Source of the DNA: the human T2T-CHM13v2.0 reference genome, Homo sapiens
Direction: 5' to 3' (one strand)
NCBI RefSeq assembly: GCF_009914755.1
Contig: NC_060938.1
DNA length: 64,000 nt
Under the pieces are notes generated by a model. The model was not told the origin of the DNA. It saw only the letters and a list, made by a program, of their open reading frames with translations, and did not search any database. Made by a program: the position numbers and the translations under genes. Below are positions 5,085 through 51,339 of this stretch, in pieces (the first letter of the stretch is position 1; the number at the start of each line of letters is the position of its first letter).

Positions 5085-5901
<817 letters not shown>

Positions 5902-6689: not shown

Positions 6690-6722
6690 CTCCCATTTCC
6701 TCCAGGACACTCAGCAGGTTCT
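6690..6722 (-). pseudogene. Unit B 33-nt phase 1-1 micro-exon (ENLLSVLEEMG-like)
   Basis: tttcctttttctctccctag|AGAACCTGCTGAGTGTCCTGGAGGAAATGGGAG|gtaaac; the phase matches the B30.2 exon, and short heptad exons precede B30.2 in BTN/TRIM genes. Confidence 0.55.
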
Positions 6723-7990
6723 CTAGGGAGAGAAAAAGGAAAATGCTTTGAGCTCCCAACCAACAGGTGCTTTCCACAAGCATCTCCCACTAGAGCTAAA
6801 AGCAAAAGCCAGGGCTGCTTCCCAGCTATAGGTAGAAGCCTGGCCTCCCTCCCCCTGTTGCTAGATCAACTGCCACAACCCCAAAGGAAAACAGGAATTT
6901 TCATTACCTTTTATCTGGTGTATGATTTGACTCAGTGTTTTACTCCTTGGAGAAAGTATGGATTCTCTTGCCTTGTTCAGTTAACTTGGAGACTAATGGT
7001 TTAACTTTCATGGTTTCACCCCTAAGAATAAACAGCAGGTTTTTGCAAATCAGGGATGAGTGGTTTACTTCTTAGGCCTAAGAGGGAGAAAGACAAACAA
7101 ACTGACCACCCTACTATCGGGAAGTGGCATCTGGAAGAAAGGGATGCAACCTAGAAATAAGGCCTTCCCACATCTGCAGGGCCTAGGACAAGAGAACGAA
7201 GGAAGGCCCACATACCATTTGGCCACATCTTTGAAAGTTATACACCAAACCAGCAAGCTGCTTAATGAAGTTATATCCTCCCACCTTGATGCATATATCT
7301 TCATAACAACCTAGAAAGTTAGTTACAAATTTAGAGTTATTGGACTCCTCAGGGTTCTGCACAGGGACACAGCAGACCAGGGAGTACCTTCCCAGCTCCC
7401 CAGCCCACTCCCTTCTCTTTACACCCTGGTCTCATCTGCATCATGAAGGACTTTGTGTGCATGTGGGTAGACACCTCAGCCCACATGACCATGCTTCATC
7501 CGTATGTTGCACCTCCTCCCCCACAGTTGCCACTTGGCTACCCCTTGGGTTTTAGGAGCATCTACTCATGCAGATGTCTGTCCTCCTAAGGACAGACCCA
7601 AAAGACAGACACAGAGAAGAGGACATCACAGGCCCTGGAAGTGGGCTCAGAGCTGCTTGTACAAGAAATTCTGGGAGTGTTATGTTAGAAGAGTGGCTTG
7701 GACGTGCAGTAGGCACATCACTCTGAGGGAGGATGGCTGCCAGTGGAGAGCCAGAGAGGGCACTTTTAATGCATAGGGCCTAGGAAAAGGGTACCTCTTG
7801 CCCAGGTAAAAGGGCAGTACTGCCAGGAATAAACATTTCCCTTTCCGAGACTTTCATCATCTGAGGAGACACGGTTTTCTCCAAGTCCTTACCCTCACAT
7901 AGGCTCTGGACCACCAGAAAGAAGCCAATAGGGAGGCAGTGGGCTAGAGTTTAATGCCACATGGACACATGTCTACAAAATGTCCAGTGA

Positions 7991-12377: not shown

Positions 12378-12682
12378 CAGCCCATGTTCTTAATCACTGG
12401 ACTACAAGGCCTTGGTGTGTTAATAAGCATCTGGTAAGGATGATGGCAGAAGATGAACTTAAAGGGGGAAATTCAAGCTCACCCAGTAGGTCAATGGCAT
12501 GGCTAAGGCGACAGTCTATGTCTTCTGACTAGCCACCAGATGCTCTCCCTCACCCGCCAGCCACTGGCTCTAGCTGTGCTGCAGATGTTATTATTCTAAG
12601 AGTGTGATGTCAAACGTAATCAGGGAATCGGGTGATTAAGTATTTAGGGAGATTTTAGACATGGACAATACCAATGGCTTAC

Positions 12683-12706
12683 CTCCTGGAGTATTGCTTT
12701 GATGTG
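12683..12706 (-). pseudogene. Unit B remnant of the TRIM ~23-nt linker exon (HIKAILQE, cf. DIKSTLSR)
   Basis: CACATCAAAGCAATACTCCAGGAG|gtaagc lies 133 nt after the coiled-coil exon; strong donor, acceptor lost. Confidence 0.5.
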
Positions 12707-12839
12707 TTCCCTCATATAGCTTTCCACAGATCAGCAAAAACACATGCTTGGAGTTGCCTAAAAACGACTGAGTGTCACCAGCCACCCACCCACCCACCCA
12801 CTGCCACCTTCCTGGTTCTCAGTCCCCTAACAAGCCCAC

Positions 12840-13066
12840 CTTTGAGACTTTATTAACTGAGTGTGGGTGGCCCGCCTTCGTTTCCTCCACAAGGTGGTTG
12901 AGGAGACATCTCTCATTTAAGATTTTGTTCATGTTTTTATGCTGGTTTCTTAAAATGGCTTTGTTGCTCTCTCAGTTGGGACAGAAGGCTTTTTTTTTCT
13001 TGTTCTCCTGGAATTGACGGCATTAGTCACACTCACAGGTGACTCTCTGCCACTTAATTTCTGCTT
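12840..13066 (-). pseudogene. Unit B TRIM-type coiled-coil exon (227 nt; canonical TRIM exon is 231 nt)
   Basis: ccactttatcctag|...AAG|gtgggc. Reconstructed with two compensating frameshifts: AEIKWQRVTCECD*CRQFQE/QEKKSLLSQLREQ/KAILRNQHKNMNKILNERCLLNHLVEETKAGHPHSVNKVSK, matching the E..Q.V..EF..LRQFL.EQE..LL.QL.E pattern of C-IV TRIMs. Confidence 0.75.
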
Positions 13067-13929
13067 CTAGGATAAAGTGGTCACATGAACACTAAAGCAA
13101 GCAATGCATCTTTCCTTTTCACTATTGTCCAAAGTTGCTGCCCTGTAATTTCCTCTTCATTTGATTCTATTCCTGTCACATACCCACTGTATAAGAATTT
13201 AAAAAGAGACAAAACAGAAACATACTTCAGGGCCTTAAAGTGTATGTCATTCAATGTGATTATAAACTGAGTTTTTACAACTCCCAACGTTATCTCCAGC
13301 TATCTTAGGGGATTATCTTAACAATAAACCTTTCAGAAAATCAATTTTAATCAATTTTGGCTTAAAACCCCATGTATTTATAAGAGGAAAATGGGATGTG
13401 CCATGAAGTCAAGAACATGTGTATGTGGGTGTAATTATGAAAAGACTGGGAATTAGTTATTCTCTAAAGCACGTGGGTGTCTGCTTTGTGGTTTAGTTCT
13501 TTGGGTCTGGTGTTGGGCTCTAGGGGAGTGTATCTATCTCAAAACAAGCAACTGGGAAGAGCTTAAAGAACATGGCTAGTTCTGCATCCAGATTCTTCCC
13601 AACAAGTAATGCTTGCAGCGACTCACATACGGAGAGCTAACCTGCTTGGAACAGGAGGGTGTGTGCTGAAATAGTTGCAGACATGAGATAATTAAGTATT
13701 TACCACCAAGAGCTTAAGTATCAGCTAATCATAGGAGTTGAAACCATCTGAGCCTCAAGGGGCAACAATGCTTTTTTTTCTTTTAATAGCCCAGAGGTAG
13801 TAAGATATAATCAATTGAAAAAAATCATAATCAATAATATTTAAGGTAGAGAAATGGTATTCAACTTGTGCTTATGAGTAACTTTTTTTCCTCCGTCTTC
13901 CTCTAAGTCGGAGATTGTCAAAATATTGC

Positions 13930-14235
13930 CTCCCAGCCAAGTCTAGCCCACCACCTGTTTTCGTTTGTCTCTTGAGCTAAGAATGTTTTTTTACATTTTT
14001 AAATAGTTGGACAAAAAAAAAATTCAAAGAAGACTATTTCGTGACAAGTGAAAATGATATGAAATTCAAATTCCAGTGTTCATAAATAAAATTTTATAGG
14101 AACACAGCCGCACTCGTTCATTTATGTATCGTCTATGGTTGCTTTTGAGCTACAAGAACAGAGGGCAGCAGTGGCACAGAAAGCCTAAAATATTTACCAT
14201 CTGGCCCTTATCAGAAAAAGTTTGCCGATCTTGGC
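13930..14235. mobile_element. MER58B-like hAT element
   Basis: GAGCTAAGAATG..TGAAATTCAAATT..AAAGCCTAAAATATTTACCATCTGGCCC. Confidence 0.75.
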
Positions 14236-14429
14236 TCTAAGGCAATGCTTTCAAAGTGGACAGTTAGTAGCTGTTACTTGACAAAAAGGGGTCCATTGAC
14301 AAATAAATTGCAAAATGCTATTTAAAATAAAATCAAACCAATTTCCTTAATAAGCTAATGTGACATAGAAATCTACAAAAAAGAGTGGGAGGGGAGGGAA
14401 GCAGAGTATTTGATGTTTCCCAAACTTAC

Positions 14430-14693
14430 TGGCTGTAAAACCCTTTTCTTTTCTGGGCTGTTTTATGGCACTAATCTTCCAGGGAACACAACTTGGTAAA
14501 TGCTGTTGACAAGTAATTGGCGATTTATGTATACACAATGGAGAGAAAAAAAGCCTGCTACTGGAAACAACAACAAAAGCCACCAAAACTGCTGGTAGTA
14601 GAATTTCTCTCGGGGAATAACCTGTTTTTTGTTTCACAAAAACACTTTTAGTAGGTCATTTGGTCATGAAAAGTTAGGTTTTAGGAACTCGAT
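14430..14693 (-). pseudogene. Unit B possible strongly decayed RING exon
   Basis: Strong phase-1 acceptor tctgtttccattttccatcttccag about 170 nt after the TM exon (similar spacing to unit A). Peptides KCFC...FGGFCCCF and LFFSPLC resemble unit A CGHGFC...LFCPHC; donor gtaagt follows 14430. Confidence 0.3.
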
Positions 14694-14871
14694 CTGGAAG
14701 ATGGAAAATGGAAACAGAGTGTTAGAGAATTCTGCACAGTAGCATGAGGTAATTTGGAGTTTGGGGCTAGGAAGAAGGATTGAAGGGGTGAACAGGACAG
14801 GAAAAGAGGGAGATGAGAAGGGTCTATGGCGACTTGAGAAGAATCAAAGAAACCTGGTGGGGGAAGCTGGC

Positions 14872-15009
14872 CAGTGAGAAATTCCCTACGGCAGAGAGAG
14901 CTACAGAATATCAGCAAAATGCCGACCATGACGACCAGTAATCCGTGGAGCCCAGTGAGGAACCAAAATGAACATGTTCCAAATGCAGGAAAAAGTGCCG
15001 TCAGAGGTG
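14872..15009 (-). pseudogene. Unit B transmembrane exon
   Basis: Open phase-1 frame PLTALFPAFGTCSFWFLTGLHGLLVVMVGILLIFCSSLCRREFLT: FP...W lead-in, hydrophobic run, then RR stop-transfer as in BTN TM exons; splice sites weak. Confidence 0.6.
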
Positions 15010-15073
15010 CTCAAATAGGAAGTGCTTCCCTTTCAACTGCAGCCTGTCATGCTGTTTTTAATTTGCTACTTAC

Positions 15074-15222
15074 TGCTGTGCTCCCTCAGGCATAGGGAAT
15101 CCCACCAGTGCAGATCCTCGAGGCACCCAGCCCGTGGGGGCACTGCTCGGGGACCCACCGGCTGCAGGTTCTCCTTTCCCCTCCCATCTGCCACCGCCTC
15201 AGGTGCTTTGCCCAAGTCAGGG
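15074..15222 (-). pseudogene. Unit B truncated IgC exon
   Basis: ctgacctcacttccccag|(A)LTWAKHLRRWQMGGERRTCSRWVPEQ... |gtaagt; resembles the BTN IgC start ALGS..HI......GGI.L.C.S.GW.P.P. Confidence 0.45.
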
Positions 15223-15654
15223 CTGGGGAAGTGAGGTCAGGCATCTCACTTTCGCATGTGCCGGCCACCCCAACCCACAGTGGAGAGGCATCGGGTGGAG
15301 GGGAGGCCATTGGGTGAGGGTGGAGAGGGGGCCTGGGGCACCCAGCAGAGGTGGGCAGTGGGTGGGTGAGGGAGTCCATTGGGGACAGCTGAGAACCTGG
15401 CCCAGTAAGGCAGGGAGTTGGCCTGGGGCAGTACTGAGCATGAATCCAGGCTCCAAGTCCCTGGTGCACACACCATTGACCCAACAGACTTCACTTACAA
15501 AGTGCAAATTCAAAGATAAAATTATTAAGAATTTTAAGACAGTGACCAAAGAATATGAAAGCCCAAGTACAGGATTCTTCTGGGCACAGGGTCCCATAGG
15601 ACTGCAATGCTTGCACACCCATGAAGCCAGCCCTCATGATAACTAGTCACTTTT

Positions 15655-17183: not shown

Positions 17184-18271
17184 TATCGGGAGAACCTGCC
17201 CCCGATAGTCACGTAGGTTCTTTTCTATTTTCCCTAAGTGTCGGCCAGTCTGAGAAATAAAGGGACAGAGTACAAAAGAGAGAAATTTTAAAGCTGGGTG
17301 TCCAGGGGAGACATCACATGTTGGCAGGTTCCGTGATGCCCCACAAGCTGCAAAACCAGCAAGTTTTTATTAGTGATTTTCAAAAGGGGAGGGAGTGTAC
17401 GAATAGGGTGTGGGCCACAGAGATCACATGCTTCACAAGGTGATAAGATATCACAAGGCAAATGGAGGCAGGGCGAGACCACAGGACCACAGGACCAGGG
17501 TGAAATTAAAATTGCTAATGAAGTTTTGGGCACGCATTGTCATTGATAACATCTTATCAGGAGACAGGGTTTGAGAGCAGACAACTGGTCTGACCAAAAT
17601 TTGTTAGGCGGGAATTTCCTCGTCCTAATAAGCCCGGGAGCGCTACAGGAGACTGGGGCTTATTTCATCCCTACAGCTGTGACCGTAAAAGACAGCCGCC
17701 CCCAAAGTGACCATTTCAGAGGCCTACCCTCAGGGACGCATTCTCTTTCTCAGGGATGTTCCTTGCTGAGAAAAAGAATTCAGCGATATTTCTCCCATTT
17801 GCTTTTGAAAGAAGAGAAACATGGCTCTGTTCCGCCCAGCTCACCGGCAGTCAGAGTTTAAGGTTATCTCTCTTGTTCCCTGAACATTGCTGTTATCCTC
17901 TTCTTTTTTCAAGGTGCCCAGATTTCATATTGTTCAAACACACATGCTCTACAAACAATTTGTGCAGTTAACACAATCATCACAGAGTCCTGAGGTGACA
18001 TACATCCTCCTCAGCTTACGAAGATGATGGGATTAAGAGATTAAAGTAAAGACAGGCATAGGAAATCACAAGGGTATTGATTCGGGAAGTGATAAGGGTC
18101 CATGAAATCTTCACAATTTATGCTCAGAGATTGCAGTAAAGACAGGCATAAGAAATTATAAAAGTATTAACTTGGGGAGCTAATAAATGTCCATGAAATC
18201 TTCACAATTTATGTTCTTCTGCCATGGCTTCAGCCGGTCCCTCCGTTCCAGGGTCCTGACTTCCGGCAACA
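17184..18271 (-). mobile_element. MER11 solo LTR (HERV-K11/HML-8)
   Basis: Minus strand TGTTGCCGGAAGTCAGG...GGTTCTCCCGATA, internal AAATTGTGAAGATTTCATGGAC repeats, perfect 6-bp TSD GGTATC (17178-17183, 18272-18277). Confidence 0.92.
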
Positions 18272-18279
18272 GGTATCTA

Positions 18280-19005
<726 letters not shown>

Positions 19006-20679
19006 AAAATATATTATTCCTTTGATTTGAAGTCTTTTTTAAATCAAAGATTGATGGCTGAGATTGTGTCTCTCATGTCTCATTTTACCCTCAATGTCTT
19101 ACAAATAGCAGTCACTCAATAAATGCTAAAGAATGTAATGCTTAGAGAACCAAAAGATTAAAGATTTTTATTCATCTTCTTGAAACTTTTGGTAGCTAAC
19201 ATGATAAAGAGCTGTTCTAGCCATATAATAAGTGAAGAATTTTGGCTACACTTTGTTACTAGGAGTTGATGTGTGTGGCCGGGCATGGTGGCTCATGCCT
19301 CTAATCCCAACACTTTGGGAGGCCAAGACAGGAGGATCTCTCGATCAGGAGTTTGGGGCCAGCCTGGGCAACATAGTGAGACCCCATCTCTAAAAAATAA
19401 ACAAATACATACATATATACATACATAAATAAATAGAAAGTGATTTGAAATATTAATAGAAAAGTAAATATTTTTAAAAGGTTATTCCCTTCACTCTCTT
19501 CTCTTTGTTGTATAGCAAGGTTACAGCTCCAGAGAGGACAAATGGCCTAACCAAGTCTCCTACCCGAGTCTCAGCGGCTGACCATGCCTTCTTCTTCACT
19601 GAGAGTAGATGCCATTTCAGGGTCAGTCTAGAAACTGGGATTTGTCCTCTCTGTCAGGCTCCACACATACCTATCACTAGGTTCCATCATCTAAGTCGTT
19701 CTTGAATCTGTCCCTCTGTTCCCTTTCTCACAGACACTGCCTGTTTTTAGGGACTCCAGATTTCCCATTTGGACTATCGTAGTAGTCTCCTCGGCTCCAG
19801 TGCACCCTCCACCCTTTCATTTCATCTAAATGAAAACATGGTACTGCCTCTCCTCTGCTGAAAGATCCTCAGAGGCTCCTCAGAGTCACAACAGTGTGCC
19901 CAATGAAACTGTGATGATGGAAGTGTCCAATATGGCAGCCACTAGCCATATGGCCACTGGGCATTTGAACATGGCTACAGAAATGTGACTGTGGAACTCA
20001 GTTGTGGCTAATGGCTACTGGATTGGACGGTGCAGGTCTGGGATAGCATGCCAATTACTCAGTGTGGCCCACAAGGCCCTTCCTTGTATTGCCGTGACTT
20101 CCCTTTCTACCCTCATTTTCCACAGCTCACTCTCCACACCCTGAGTGCCTTGTGAACTTCATGCTTTTCCCTTTACACATGCAGCGTTCTTTCACACTGT
20201 TGCTCCTCCTGGAATGCCCTATCCTGCTTTACTTGCCTGACAAAGTTCCTACTCACCTTGCAAGACTCAGCTTAACTCCCTTTTCCTCTGTGAGGCCTTC
20301 CGGTCCAGCCTCAGGATGCACCCAGAGTCCTCCACTGGGCTACCACCAGGGCCACCACACAACTCCAGGGGGTACCATTTACACTGAAGTGCATGCACAT
20401 GACAACTTCTGGATTTGTGCAGTACACAGTATATGCAGCCCTCATGGTGGTCAAAGTCCAAACTTGTTTGATATAGGTAGCTGTTTTGATATAATACTTT
20501 TATTTAGTTCATTCATTCATCCATTCGTGAGGCACGGGGCTTGGCTTATATTACCATAGTCATTTATTTCTATGTCTTATTCCTAAACCCCTCTGTGGAT
20601 TCCTGCATGCAAGGACCTTGTATTCCTAAAACCTGGCTTACTGCCTGGCACATAGTAGAAACTCAATAAATATCTGTCA

Positions 20680-21015
20680 AAGCAGGGATTGGCAAACTGT
20701 GGCCCATGGGCAAAATCCCAGCCACCACCTGCTTTGTATGATCCATGAGCTAAGAAAGGTTTTTACATTTTTAAAGGGTTAGAGAAAAATCAAAAGAATA
20801 ATATATTGTGATGTAAAAATTAAGTAAAATTCAAATCTCAGTGTTCATATGCAAAGTTTCACTGGAATACAGACATATCACTCAGTTAAGTGTTGCCTGT
20901 AGCTGCTTTTGCCCTATAGCTGCAGAGTTGAGATGCTGTAACAGAGACTTTGTGGCCCACATAGACAAAAATCTTTACTCTCTGGCCCTTTCAAAAAAAA
21001 GTTTGCAGACCCCTC
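20680..21015. mobile_element. MER58B-like hAT element
   Basis: CAGGGATTGGCAAACTGTGGCCCATGGG...AAAAAGTTTGCAGACCCCT termini. Confidence 0.8.
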
Positions 21016-21175
21016 TGTTAAAGGAAGACATAAACAGACTTCCTCCCCTCAGAACACAGCTGCTCCTCTTCCCATCTTTCCCTCCTAGCTGCCTGCTTCA
21101 GCGGAAGACTTGGCCCTGGTCCTTGCCATACCCCACATTCTAGATCCTCACTTCCTGCCTCCTCTGGTACTTTGA

Positions 21176-21527
<352 letters not shown>

Positions 21528-22329
21528 ACTTGCCTTGGATTCTATGCTCCAGAAATAACAATTGGCTTGAGATTCCCCCCAAACCATATATTTTCTGCCT
21601 ATCCTTGAAAATCCCAATACAGAAGACTCCTTTTTCCTCTTCCCAGTTTTCCCAGTTTGCGATGCTCCTCCTACCCCCTGGCCCTCAACATTTATACCTC
21701 TGCCTGGGATTCTTTTAGGACCCAGAGCAGATAAACCAAATCCTGGAAGTCTTTCTCAGCCTCTTCCTCTCTCAGATTTAATCATTTGCTCTTCTCTGCA
21801 AGAGAGTTCAGATTCTAGTAAATACTACATTATATCCTAGTGAATGGAGTGTGTCTAGGTCATTCCCCGCATTTCATTAATTAACTAACTCGTGCATTTT
21901 ACAAATATTTGCCGAGTGCTAATATGTGCCAGGCATCATGCTAGGTGCTGGAATGTGTTGATGACTGAGTCAGATGTGGTCCTTGCTCTGTCTAGCGGGG
22001 GAGACAGTTACTAAACATGGCAATGAATGCATCATTATAAATTGTGATAAGTGTTACGAAGAAAAGAACAGGCTGCTACGAGAAGACTTAGCATATAAGA
22101 GACTGTCAGAATTTTTTGCTTGATTGGTGCTGAATAGAAAAACATGCGCTTGAAGAGATGGCCTGGTCAGTTCTCTCTCCTTTCAAAAAAGAAAATGAGG
22201 CTTAGAGATCTTACATGATTCACCTAAAGTCACACAGCTTCTAGCCATCAACAGTAGCATAATTCAATTGAATTCAGTTAATGGAATTCAGTGGGGTGAC
22301 TCCAAAGTCGGATTGCCCTTGTTACAACA

Positions 22330-22804
22330 TTCACCTTTATTTTCCAATAAATAATCTCATCTACAGTCATCAAGTGTCTGTGTGTGACAACTTTATATGC
22401 ATGTTTTAATGACTCACTCACCTAAATGTGATATCCATAAATCAGGCATATTGAGTAATGAAAAGGTGGCTCAAACAACAGTGACAGAAATAATTTTCAA
22501 AGACTTCAAATTATTTACCAAGCTATTATGTATTCCTGCAGCCTTTCTTCCATCTATAGCCCCTTAGCCCTTCTGGAGGCTGATGGGCGATATGCTTTGC
22601 TATAGTCTTTTCCAGATCAGTGCTGGAGCATTTGTCCTCCTCCTGAACCCCATGTGGCCGGAAGACGCCTGTCCCTGTCAGAAGGCTCTCTGCAGGAAGG
22701 CAGAAGGCTGACTCCAGCATGTGCCAAGAGTTTAATCGGAGTTTGGCGGAAATTGGCCACTCAATATCGACAGCTGATATTGAGAAGTGGCTGGATCAAC
22801 ACAA
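22330..22804 (-). pseudogene. Unit A terminal exon: second, more decayed B30.2 (PRY-SPRY) domain
   Basis: After accactttcag: VDPATSQYQLSILSG (LDP.TA...L.LS), GVF/GHMGFRR (CVLG..GF.SG), SASRRA (ESVSRK). Then in one frame FMDITFR*VSH*NM (22441-22400; FLDYE.G.VSFYNV), SHTDT (SHIYT) and FIGK*R (F.G.LR). Confidence 0.7.
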
Positions 22805-23231
22805 CTGAAAGTGGTTTAGGGGCAATACCAGGTGAGCAGTCGATGGAGTTTCAGGTCACAAAGAAGCAAGGACTTGCACTGCTTTAAATATCTCTATCAC
22901 TTTTTGTTCACTTATGTTTATAGTGAGCAAGGTGGTCATAAGTTCTGGGACCTGGGATTGAATTCTGGCTCTTCCACCTCCAAGGAGGGTGACTTAGGTG
23001 AGTCACTTAGCCTCTGCGGGTCTAAGGTTCCTCAAATGCCCAGGAGGAATACTGAGGGGACCTGTCTGGGGTTGGGGGGGCCTGTGGTGAAGGTTAAATG
23101 AGTTCGTTTGTGTAAATAGATTACCACCCCGCCCAGGGTGAGGGCCAATGACAAGAGCAAATCCGAATAAAGTGCTTCCTTTGCCCCGGGCTCAGCTCTA
23201 AATTCCTGTTGTAATATACTTAAGCCTCAAG

Positions 23232-23608
<377 letters not shown>

Positions 23609-24243
23609 TTAACTGGCTTGTCCAGGTCACACAGCTAGTAAGTATCAAAGCTGGGATATGAACCCAGAGAGACTGGCTTCAGTATCCACAACCATAAGCA
23701 CGGCACTAAATCTCTCAATAAGAACGAGCTATTATTTCATTTTTATTTGTTTATAGTTTTACATTTACTGCTCTTCCCTCTAACTTTAAATTGCCTTCCT
23801 TGAAATTCCTTCTGTTCAGTATTCTATGATGACTGTATTATCCCAGCCAAAAATCTGAGATGTGTGTTCAGAGAAAGGATTTTGTGCTGCAGAAGGTAAG
23901 AGGTTTACAGGCAATTCTGAAAATTCCATTTAGACACTACGAAGTTGGGATTTCTAAAACATTTGTGATAGCTTAAGGCGACAGGAGGATAAAATATTTG
24001 AAATCAGTATTGTCCTGGAAAAGCCCGAATAGTAGATGAAGATATTATTTTCTTTGCCCTTTAAATCCTTTTCCAAATAGACCGAGTACAAGATTGAGGG
24101 CCCTGAGAGCAGATGGCCCTCAATAAACACGAGCAACTGGCAGGCTCTGGTTAAGTCCAGGCTGCCCGCCTCTCCTCCCCACCCGGAGGCAGGGCCCTTC
24201 CTGAGCGCCTTTCGGGAAATAGCAGCGCACTCGTCCTGTCCCG

Positions 24244-24333
24244 CTGGGAGATGTTGACTTTTTATTGCTCTTCCCTCCACAAATTTCACAGCAAACTCTT
24301 TTTCTTCATGGTGTTTAAATCCTTCTCAAATTC
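24244..24333 (-). pseudogene. Unit A first coiled-coil exon (about 90 nt; TRIM 96-nt exon equivalent)
   Basis: tttgttttgtttccag|GAA phase 0: EFEKDLNTMKKKSLL*NLWREEQ*KVNISQ; donor lost. Confidence 0.45.
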
Positions 24334-24429
24334 CTGGAAACAAAACAAATAACCCAAAGATAACTTTTAAAAGATTTTGATTCTTCAGTAACTTTTTCTT
24401 AGTGAGTTTTTCTTACATTTAAAATTGTT

Positions 24430-27349: not shown

Positions 27350-27671
27350 AAATCCCATTCTTCATCCCCTCTCCCCCAAACCCGTGCAGGCCCACGTGAA
27401 TCGGAATCCTTGCTCTGTTCAGCTGGCTAAGGCGAGTCCCGCAAAGCGCTGGCCTCCAGGTGCTTCTGCCAGGCCTTGTGGTGCAAGGGCCCTGCCTCCT
27501 CCCGCTCCAGCAGCAGCCCTGGCGATGCCCACTGCGTTTCTCAGCTCTGTTGGCAGTGGGGGCAGAAGAGGCTGCCTGAGGCCCCCTCCCAGCAAAAGCC
27601 GTGGCCACACCTGCAATGACTGGGTTGCAGCTCTGAGCTGCAAGCATTGGCTGTGGCCTGGAGACCAGCCA
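27350..27671 (-). pseudogene. Unit A TRIM RING + B-box exon remnant
   Basis: ttctgcctacttacag| phase 1, single frame: (V)AGLQATANACSSELQPSHCRCGHGFCWEGASGSLFCPHCQQS*...KAWQKHLEA. NPVIA lies in an adjacent frame just before CGHGFC (27609-27592); CPHC at 27564-27553; WQKHLEA/QRF(C) at 27471 resembles B-box C.KH.E.L.LFC. Confidence 0.7.
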
Positions 27672-27858
27672 CTGTAAGTAGGCAGAACTTTTTGGCTTTA
27701 GATTCGTTTCAGTTTTGTAATCAGAAAGTTGCTTCTCTCAGTTCCGCAACTTTCCCTTTCGGCAGGCCTGCATCAAGTGCCCTCTGTAACCCAGGAAGGA
27801 GACGGTTCAGGGTGGGAAACCAGTAGGGGCTGTGCCATGGTCCAAGGGGGCTCCTCAC

Positions 27859-31289: not shown

Positions 31290-32420
<1,131 letters not shown>

Positions 32421-49499: not shown

Positions 49500-50569
49500 T
49501 CTCAGGGAACCTGCCCCGATAGTCACTTAGGTTCTTTTCTATTTTCCCTAAGCGTCGGCCGGCTTGAGAAATAAAGGGACAGAGTACAAAAGAGAGAAAT
49601 TTTAAAGCAGGGCATCCGGGGGAGACATCACATGTCGGTAGTTTCCGTGATGCCCCACAAGCCACAAAAACCAGCAAGTTTTTATTAGGGATTTTCAAAA
49701 GGAGAGGGAGTGTGCGAATAGGTGTGGGTCACAGACATCAAGTACTTCACAAGGTAATAGAATATCACAAGGCAAATGGAGGCAGGGCAAGATCACAGGA
49801 CCACAGGACGGGGCAAAATTAAAATTGCTAATGAAGCTTCGGGCACCACTGTCATTGATAACATCTTATCAGGGGACAGGGTTTTGAGAGCAACCGGTCT
49901 GACTAAAATTTATTAGGTGGGAATTTCTTCTTCCTAATAAGCCTGGGAGCGCTGTGGGAGACTGGGGTCTATTTCACCCCTACAGCCTTGACCATAGAAG
50001 ACGGGCACACCTAGGGGGGCTGTCTATAGGCCTATACCCCCAGGTGCGTATTCTCTTTCCCAGGGATGTTCCTTGCTGAGAAAAAGAATTCAGTGATATT
50101 TCTCCCATTTGCTTTTGAAAGAAGAGAAATATGGCTCTGTTCCGCCCGGCTCACCAGCGGTCAGAGTTTAAGTTTATCTCTCTTATTCCCTGAACAGTTG
50201 CTGTTATCCTGCTCTTTTTTCAAGGTGCCCAGATTTCATATTGTTTAAACACACATGCTCTACAATTTGTGCAGTTAATGCGATTATCACATGGTCCTGA
50301 GGCAATATACATCTTCCTCAGCTGACAGGATTCAGAGATTAAAGTAAAGACAGGCATAGGAAATCACAAGGGTATTGATTGGGGAAGTGATAAGTGTCCA
50401 TGAAATCTTCACAATTTATGTTTAGAGACTGCAGTAAAAACAGGCATAAGAAATTATAAAAGTATTAACTTGGGGAACTAATAAATGTCCATGAAATCTT
50501 CACAATCCATGTTCTTCTGCCATGGCGTCAGCCGGTCCCTCTGTTTGGGGTCCCTGACTTCCCACAACA
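49500..50569 (-). mobile_element. MER11 solo LTR, different subvariant
   Basis: Colinear with the 17184-18271 copy but with a divergent central segment; imperfect TSD TATTCT/TATTTC. Confidence 0.9.
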
Positions 50570-51339
50570 TATTTCCAATATATGTTATGGAACAGTGTTA
50601 TCCCACTTTTAAAAGTCTTATATACAGTATTCGTATATGCCTAGAAGAGGATATGATTTGTAATAAGGTAGAGAAGGATATGGGGACTCTGCATGCTCTT
50701 ATTTGAGTTTCCTGAAATAAGCATGTCATAACATGCTTTTGTAATATGAAATGGTGAGAAAAGTGCTATTTAGGAGGTAGAAGTAGTGATGGAATGGAGG
50801 AAGTCTTCTCCAGGGAAGGGGAATGAGGCTGAAGCGCTGTGACTCAGAGAGAAACACCTGTGGTGTCCGGAGTTCCCCATTTGCTATTTGCCCTCCTGTG
50901 CACGGAATCTGTGACAGGCAGCCTGCCAACGACATGACCTCTGTTAATGACAGCTGAAGTCTGGGCTCGTGTAGATTCTTAAGCAGAATAGGAATCAGAG
51001 TCAGAACTGTGGTTATTAGATGAGTGGCCTTGTCAGAACTTTATCACCAAGTAGTATTTATTAAGCACTCTCTTGCTTTAATGAGTCAGGAAATAGGGTT
51101 CTCGTTCCCTTTATCATTCACAGTTGTGTTTCTCAGCAAGTGCAGGGCTCCCTTCCTAAAATGGCCCAGGACCCTTTCTCCTGAAGCCATATTACTAGGC
51201 AGAATGTTCCAGGGATGCAAAGTGTTGAGTCAACTACAGAGTATTAACTGAATGTCTCATTGCTCTCTGGGACTTTTTATTCTGGTTCTCACTTCTTCTC
51301 CCTACCTCCTACCAGAAAATACAATAGTCAAATCTGTGT

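What the first reader, a model, noticed from the sequence alone, without database searches (positions are those of the whole stretch)
12683..13066. TRIM-signature 231+23-nt exon pair downstream of a transmembrane exon
Seen: a 227-nt coiled-coil exon followed by an HIKAILQ(E) mini-exon with a strong donor, about 1.8 kb 3' of the unit B TM exon. Established: about 231-nt then 23-nt exons are typical of C-IV TRIM genes, not of butyrophilins. This supports the hybrid architecture in the second unit independently of unit A.
Basis: partly seen in the sequence, partly recalled or inferred. Interest (0 to 1): 0.7.

Follow-up and report, generated by a model that had tools for sequence, protein, structure and literature searches.

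The report
Dead marsupial-type TRIM gene in humans
The two exons are real pieces of a broken, unannotated human TRIM gene whose closest intact relatives are marsupial proteins and which likely died early in placental mammal history; the proposed fusion with a membrane receptor is not supported.

Summary
The coiled-coil peptide aligns without gaps to a tammar wallaby 'TRIM10-like' protein (score 113; 0 of 1000 shuffles reach it).

The pair is exons 3 and 4 of one decayed seven-exon C-IV TRIM gene spanning about 27690-5100: RING/B-box remnant, 89, 227, about 24, 114 and 33 nt, then an Alu-split B30.2 exon. Its B30.2 groups with four marsupial proteins (100/99 support), apart from 29 human paralogues, so it is likely a unitary pseudogene. 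RefSeq shows nothing here.

The butyrophilin-TRIM hybrid is not supported. No Ig exon scores above controls. The 'TM exon' is no more hydrophobic than chance stretches, has no good donor and lies in intron 2. The marsupial proteins have no TM helix. Only one coiled-coil exon and one B30.2 exon were found, so there are no two units. Exons 1 and 2 are weakly supported, and synteny and the date of loss are untested.

The parts
27400..27690 (-). Exon 1 remnant: RING finger and start of B-box, broken by frameshifts, deletions and stops; borders approximate
   Evidence: tblastn hits from 17 of 53 TRIM-family queries, best E 6.6e-4 in a window-sized search; tolerant profile 33.3 bits vs control maximum 26.1; strict profile 23.7 vs 22.7, not separated; Pfam zf-RING_5 only E 0.24
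24245..24333 (-). Candidate exon 2 (89 nt; the 96-nt exon of TRIM genes), donor decayed; weak
   Evidence: Best minus-strand hit of a splice-anchored scan, in the expected place, but 7.6 vs control maximum 11.2; 10 of 31 identical to tammar with hand-placed gaps
12840..13066 (-). Exon 3, coiled coil, 227 nt (231 in the intact gene), 2 stops, frame broken at the 5' end
   Evidence: 24 of 75 identical to tammar without gaps
12683..12706 (-). Exon 4, the 23-nt-type mini-exon (HIKAILQE), strong donor, acceptor lost
6908..7021 (-). Exon 5, linker, 114 nt (116 expected from the tammar protein), one stop, one frameshift, both splice sites intact
   Evidence: 15.9 vs control maximum 7.8; 10 of 38 identical to tammar in register
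6690..6722 (-). Exon 6, 33 nt, phase 1-1, open, both splice sites intact
   Evidence: Best hit 15.1, next minus-strand hit 14.9, control maximum 13.4; 5 of 10 identical to tammar, 6 of 10 to koala
5102..5901 (-). Exon 7, B30.2 (PRY-SPRY), intact acceptor, 2 internal stops, a frameshift near 5617, split by an Alu
   Evidence: Pfam PRY E 1.9e-7; PDB best BTN3 E 8.9e-15; 53% to tammar P0010; tree
5270..5569 (+). Alu inserted in exon 7
   Evidence: Repeat family D1; 92% and 88% identical to two other copies in the window, short duplicated flank
14870..15010 (-).

Best explanation
This is a broken seven-exon C-IV TRIM gene on the minus strand (RING/B-box remnant, coiled coil, B30.2), likely the unitary pseudogene of a gene still intact in marsupials and likely inactive since early placental mammal evolution. 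Shown: exons 3, 5, 6 and 7 match the marsupial proteins in order, strand, size and phase, and exons 3, 5 and 7 carry stops and frameshifts, so no TRIM protein can be made today. Inferred: exons 1, 2 and 4 (weaker scores, right places); orthology (tree only, no synteny); the date of loss. Inferred from family knowledge: the living gene made a cytosolic protein that dimerised through the coiled coil, bound targets through B30.2 and, with its RING, acted as a ubiquitin ligase. The nearby hydrophobic stretch is likely chance intronic sequence.
For: Tammar P0010 is the best single-domain hit among 1.84 billion representatives (53% identity, 101.9 bits) and also hits the coiled-coil exon (E 6e-8). 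One search names it and three relatives as marsupial 'TRIM10-like'. B30.2 tree of 60 rows (fossil, 29 human paralogues, 30 chosen proteins): fossil plus the 4 marsupials form a clade at 100/99, with a long fossil branch of 0.85. On the same columns tammar is 54% identical to the fossil and at most 45% to any of the 29 intact or pseudogenic human paralogues. Exon sizes 227/24/114/33 against 231/23/116/33 expected. There are 5 internal stops in about 310 assigned codons; simulation gives 4.5-5.8 at 0.15-0.2 substitutions per base, with a wide range of about 0.1-0.4. The DNA of the finding has 1 match in the genome, itself. No placental protein is among 53 hits or 30 hits.
Against: The best solved-structure and human matches of the B30.2 exon by score are BTN3A butyrophilins, and the fossil is not the top-scoring human match because the Alu halves it. 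All four marsupial records lack RING and B-box, so exon 1 has no close reference; it separates from controls only under tolerant scoring (not). Exon 2 does not beat controls. One search also returned no placental paralogues, so it is not exhaustive, and clusters at 50% identity and could hide a placental orthologue. Synteny, transcription and conservation in other placentals could not be tested. No formal clade test was run on the tree.
Confidence: 0.88

Rival explanations
1. One reading: a butyrophilin-type TM exon was once spliced to the TRIM coiled-coil and B30.2 exons, making a membrane-anchored TRIM, or a decayed butyrophilin is nested in the TRIM fossil.
For: A stop-free hydrophobic stretch (19-residue hydropathy 2.46) lies 1.8 kb upstream of exon 3. 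A 27-nt phase-1 mini-exon candidate with strong splice sites at 8784-8758 resembles BTN heptad exons in size and phase. The B30.2 scores best against BTN3 among solved structures.
Against: No IgV or IgC signal (window maxima 19.6 and 20.6 vs controls 24.4 and 20.1), whereas human BTN exons decayed by 25-30% still gave medians of 41-57 bits (V) and 32-48 (C); that power is overstated because those exons were in the profile. TM stretch: rank 208 on a BTN TM profile; 0 of 13 PDB matches are butyrophilins; no strong donor. The BTN TM exons found are phase 1-1 (4 of 7 genes; only phase 1 was searched), whereas the coiled-coil exon is phase 0. The 4 marsupial proteins have no TM (hydropathy at most 1.12), and no longer marsupial form appears among 30 hits (weak evidence by the tool's own note). 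The coiled-coil peptide matches 0 of 6 BTN-like proteins above shuffles.
Confidence: 0.04
2. A duplicated (unprocessed) pseudogene: a dead copy of a gene of this therian clade whose true orthologue lay elsewhere and was deleted or survives in some placentals.
For: Synteny is untested. C-IV TRIM genes duplicate often (PMC10445537, passages). The placental protein search is not exhaustive.
Against: No closer human locus among the 29 in the tree or by identity among 112 genome matches (fossil 50%, next 47%). The finding's DNA is single-copy.
Confidence: 0.07
3. Chance pattern in intronic-like DNA.
For: Exons 2 and 4, taken alone, are near or below control scores. Pfam misses exon 3.
Against: Exons 3, 5 and 7 are each far above controls and collinear with one protein.
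Confidence: 0.01

Closest known systems
Marsupial 'tripartite motif-containing protein 10-like' (tammar P0010, Dromiciops P0152, bilby P0153, koala P0154; names)
   Same: Collinear match over exons 3-7, matching exon sizes, 53-56% identity in B30.2, one clade at 100/99, no TM helix.
   Different: They are intact but annotated without RING and B-box (267-355 aa). The human copy is dead but keeps a RING/B-box remnant. Despite the name they do not group tightly with the human locus I recall as TRIM10.
Human C-IV TRIM genes (TRIM10, 11, 15, 17, 21, 39; names recalled)
   Same: Phase-0 231-nt exon followed by a 23-nt exon, terminal B30.2 exon.
   Different: None is the parent. The fossil coiled coil beats shuffles only against TRIM10 (1 of 1000), not against the other 5.
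Butyrophilins (BTN1A1, 2A1, 2A2, 3A1, 3A3, ERMAP, BTNL9; names recalled)
   Same: B30.2 domain; BTN3 gives the best solved-structure score.
   Different: They have Ig and TM exons and phase-1 mini-exons of 21/27/33 nt, and lack the 231+23 pair. No Ig exon is detectable in the window.
Human unitary pseudogenes lost in placental mammals (for example the chr10 TNFR-like entry in Supplemental Data S3 of PMC6886504)
   Same: Exon fossil in synteny-free human DNA with an intact marsupial counterpart.
   Different: This locus is not among the 44 rows of that file; its chr14 rows are at 62.1 and 35.0 Mb.

Membership tests
C-IV TRIM (RING, B-box, coiled coil, PRY-SPRY) | C-terminal PRY-SPRY (B30.2) in one terminal exon | tested here: met
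   Pfam PRY E 1.9e-7; C-terminal part hits tammar at E 1e-9; phase-1 acceptor at 5901
C-IV TRIM (RING, B-box, coiled coil, PRY-SPRY) | Coiled coil on a 231-nt phase-0 exon followed by a 23-nt exon | tested here: met
   227 nt and about 24 nt; 0 of 1000 shuffles; the mini-exon's acceptor is lost
C-IV TRIM (RING, B-box, coiled coil, PRY-SPRY) | N-terminal RING finger | tested here: inconclusive
   Remnant at 27660-27500: 17 of 53 queries; above controls, not; Pfam E 0.24
C-IV TRIM (RING, B-box, coiled coil, PRY-SPRY) | B-box | tested here: inconclusive
   Only the first residues align, as part of the tblastn hits ending at 27442
C-IV TRIM (RING, B-box, coiled coil, PRY-SPRY) | Open reading frame (functional gene) | tested here: not met
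   5 internal stops, frameshifts in exons 3, 5 and 7, and an Alu in exon 7
Butyrophilin | IgV exon | tested here: not met
   No score above controls on either strand
Butyrophilin | IgC exon | tested here: not met
   Maximum 20.6 over 12 codons vs control 20.1
Butyrophilin | Phase 1-1 transmembrane exon | tested here: not met
   Rank 208 on the BTN TM profile; chance-level hydrophobicity; no strong donor
Butyrophilin | Series of 21/27-nt phase-1 heptad exons before B30.2 | tested here: inconclusive
   One isolated 27-nt candidate at 8784-8758; 4 such candidates on both strands in all, one being TRIM exon 6, and 0 in reversed controls
Unitary pseudogene | No intact human copy of the same gene | tested here: met
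   Tree and identities against 29 human B30.2 loci; 112 genome matches; candidate lists are lower bounds
Unitary pseudogene | Synteny with the intact orthologue | not testable with these tools
   No marsupial genome is held

The most novel reading that the evidence does not exclude
The fossil records a real TRIM-butyrophilin intermediate: besides the RING/B-box start, an alternative TM exon (15010-14870) and a heptad mini-exon (8784-8758) once gave a membrane-anchored coiled-coil/B30.2 isoform, or a butyrophilin nested in the gene has decayed beyond detection of its Ig exons.
Probability: 0.04. Interest if true: 0.75.

Novelty: new member of a known kind. Interest (0 to 1): 0.35.

Why it matters
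It adds an apparently unrecorded gene loss to the history of an innate-immunity family. Most attention goes to TRIM gains in placentals, such as TRIM5/6/22/34 (PMC10709114) and TRIML2 (PMC6993854); this looks like a loss. The pattern may be reciprocal: marsupial records keep coiled coil and B30.2 without RING, while the human fossil keeps a RING remnant. It also points to an unstudied marsupial protein that is misleadingly named TRIM10-like. It has no evident function in humans, and the striking hybrid claim fails, so the interest is moderate.

Tried and rejected
1) Plus-strand reading: no motif or exon.
2) Two duplicated units: self-blastn outside Alus shows no duplicated gene-like unit, and exon 3 and exon 7 queries each find one site.
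3) An Ig exon near 22960-22400, suspected by eye (a 268-nt stretch with strong splice sites): no Pfam hit and no profile signal.
4) A RING/B-box near 7700-7280, suspected by eye: not among the top hits.
5) The TM stretch as a COX3 remnant or ribosomal L24 piece: Pfam COX3 E 0.0027, below its cut-off; PDB E 0.055 and worse; no other genomic copy. Treated as chance.
6) Word-indexed search with the decayed B30.2 piece: 0 of 39 candidates. PDB search with exon 3: 0 hits. Pfam on 12400-15640 and 18632-24420: nothing meaningful.
7) Fused longer forms of P0010: 30 hits, none marsupial. P0214 and P0210 are tandem TRIM-then-BTN read-through models, not TM-before-coiled-coil hybrids.
8) Literature: searches gave 0 papers; searches gave nothing on this locus in the listings. 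PMC3296468 has 0 occurrences of TRIM, B30.2, RFP, SPRY or butyrophilin in its main text. PMC6886504 S1 has 0 occurrences of tripartite, TRIM, butyrophilin or SPRY.
Not done: Pfam on the plus strand and on 28400-64000 (these were covered only by my TRIM and BTN profiles); sequence outside the window on chr14; structure prediction.

Full report
OBSERVATION. The plus strand shows nothing. On the minus strand HIKAILQE occurs once in six frames, at 12706-12683, followed by GTAAGC. Upstream lies a 227-nt segment, 13066-12840, between an AG acceptor and a GTGGGC donor; the intron between the two is 133 nt. The segment has two stops. The mini-exon has no acceptor left and measures 24 nt from its His codon. 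The DNA is single-copy in the genome search.

FINDING THE REFERENCE. Reading stops as X, Pfam found a PRY domain 7 kb downstream on the same strand (E 1.9e-7). Solved structures matched it best to BTN3, which may be what suggested a butyrophilin. A full HMMER scan of 1.84 billion representatives gave one clearly closer single-domain protein, P0010 (53%). P0010 also hits the coiled-coil exon (E 6e-8) and the SPRY tail beyond an Alu. One search names it tammar wallaby 'TRIM10-like isoform X2', with relatives in Dromiciops, bilby and koala (82-89%), then turtles, crocodilians and birds (47% or less). None of the 53 hits is placental, but no placental paralogue appears either, so the search is not exhaustive. 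The koala isoform skips exactly 77 codons, which fixes exon 3 at 231 nt.

TEST OF THE PAIR. The exon 3 peptide aligns to tammar without gaps (24 of 75 identical). Its score is 113 against a shuffle maximum of 53, with 0 of 1000 shuffles reaching it; Dromiciops and bilby give the same result. It beats shuffles against 1 of 6 human TRIM exon-3 peptides and 0 of 6 BTN-like proteins. A frameshift-aware scan gives 52 bits against 20.5 or less in controls, and hhalign gives E 1.2e-6. The mini-exon is best of 5799 positions in its interval and narrowly best window-wide (16.4 vs 15.1). In human loci fetched from the genome, 6 of 7 TRIM genes showed the 231+23 pair (the seventh only the 23-nt exon at my thresholds) and 0 of 7 butyrophilin-family genes did. 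The gene names for these loci are my recall, not a tool output.

THE WHOLE GENE. With the marsupial alignment as guide, the other exons fall in order on the minus strand. Exon 5 is 7021-6908 (114 nt, both splice sites, 15.9 vs control 7.8). Exon 6 is 6722-6690 (33 nt, open, 15.1 vs control 13.4 and a second minus-strand hit of 14.9). Exon 7 starts at 5901 and is split by an Alu at 5569-5270. Upstream, a candidate exon 2 at 24333-24245 is best on its strand but below the control maximum (7.6 vs 11.2). A RING/B-box remnant at about 27690-27400 is hit by 17 of 53 queries and beats controls under tolerant scoring (33.3 vs 26.1) but not under strict scoring (23.7 vs 22.7). The splice-site scores use my own consensus matrices. 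There is one exon 3 and one exon 7 in the window, so one unit.

ORTHOLOGY AND AGE. A B30.2 tree of the fossil, the 29 human loci and 30 proteins chosen from 233 puts the fossil sister to the four marsupials (100/99) on a long branch. Deeper placement is unresolved, and no clade test was run. Tammar is 54% identical to the fossil and 45% or less to the other human loci. By raw score the fossil is not tammar-clade's top human match (Dromiciops query) because the Alu halves it, but it has the highest identity of 112 matches. Five internal stops in about 310 codons fit 0.1-0.4 substitutions per base of neutral decay, best near 0.15-0.2. On a recalled rate of about 2e-9 per year that is tens to over a hundred million years. 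With the lack of placental hits this suggests an early placental loss. That is inference, and synteny is untested.

THE HYBRID CLAIM. IgV and IgC profiles built from 19 and 14 vertebrate and human domains find nothing above reversed controls. Simulated decay shows they should see V exons at 25-30% divergence, although the test exons were in the profiles. The TM-like stretch has hydropathy 2.46, reached by 6 stretches on the minus strand (itself included; several others are simple repeats), 7 on the plus strand, and 10 and 5 in controls. It ranks 208th on a BTN TM profile and lacks a strong donor. Its 13 PDB matches are COX3 and L24e at E 0.055 or worse, none a butyrophilin. Just upstream is a 58-nt piece with two other genomic copies at 84%, likely a repeat fragment. 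BTN TM exons found were phase 1-1, while exon 3 is phase 0. The marsupial proteins have no TM helix, and no longer marsupial form was found (weak). The one loose end in favour is a 27-nt phase-1 candidate exon at 8784-8758. It is isolated, its phase does not fit the intron it lies in, and two similar candidates occur outside the gene.

MECHANISM. Shown: the locus cannot encode the protein now. Inferred from C-IV TRIM biology (recalled; C-IV defined by C-terminal PRY-SPRY in PMC10445537): coiled-coil dimerisation, B30.2 target binding, RING ubiquitin ligase activity. The marsupial records start at exon 2 and would be RING-less like TRIML2 (PMC6993854); whether that is real or annotation is open.

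WHAT IS IN PRINT. RefSeq lists no gene in the window (hub note). What I saw of papers: PMC6886504, passages, all of Supplemental Data S3 and a term search of S1; the locus is not in S3, and S2 and S4-S6 were not read and could list it. PMC10445537, PMC10709114 and PMC6993854, passages only. PMC3296468, a main-text term search with 0 hits; its supplements were not read. Nine searches found no description of this locus. Current GENCODE and UCSC tracks could not be checked.

VERDICT. Observation confirmed, TRIM call right, hybrid not supported. This is an unannotated TRIM fossil of a marsupial-retained gene: new member of a known kind, interest 0.35.

Noticed in passing
window 8784-8758 (-): 27-nt phase-1 candidate mini-exon with strong splice sites and a heptad-like peptide, similar in size and phase to butyrophilin mini-exons; lies in intron 4 of the fossil, where the phase does not fit; surrounding DNA is single-copy.
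   Followed up: partly
window 15010-14855 (-): The TM-like stretch weakly resembles COX3 (Pfam E 0.0027) and archaeal L24e (PDB E 0.19); treated as chance.
   Followed up: partly
window 17192-18280 and 49507-50578 (+): Two 1.1-kb copies, 87% identical, with an internal unit of about 90 nt repeated; they look like two insertions of one LTR-type repeat (family not determined).
   Followed up: no
window 22689-22422 (-): 268-nt stretch with strong acceptor and donor, stops in all frames, no Pfam or Ig match; possibly a non-coding exon or chance.
   Followed up: partly
window about 7310-7215 (-): Stop-free stretch with plausible splice sites about 200 nt upstream of exon 5, seen by eye; no match to the TRIM or BTN profiles.
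   Followed up: partly
window 31319-31988: Tandem pair of about 335 nt, 76% identical; likely repeat fragments.
   Followed up: no
G000 C2:223130975-223131922, C10:84613816-84614706, C6:113533375-113533923: Long intron-free matches to a coiled-coil/B30.2 TRIM with 1-2 stops, which look like processed TRIM pseudogenes.
   Followed up: no
P0010, P0152, P0153, P0154: All four marsupial records are named TRIM10-like yet lack RING and B-box and do not group tightly with the human locus recalled as TRIM10.
   Followed up: partly
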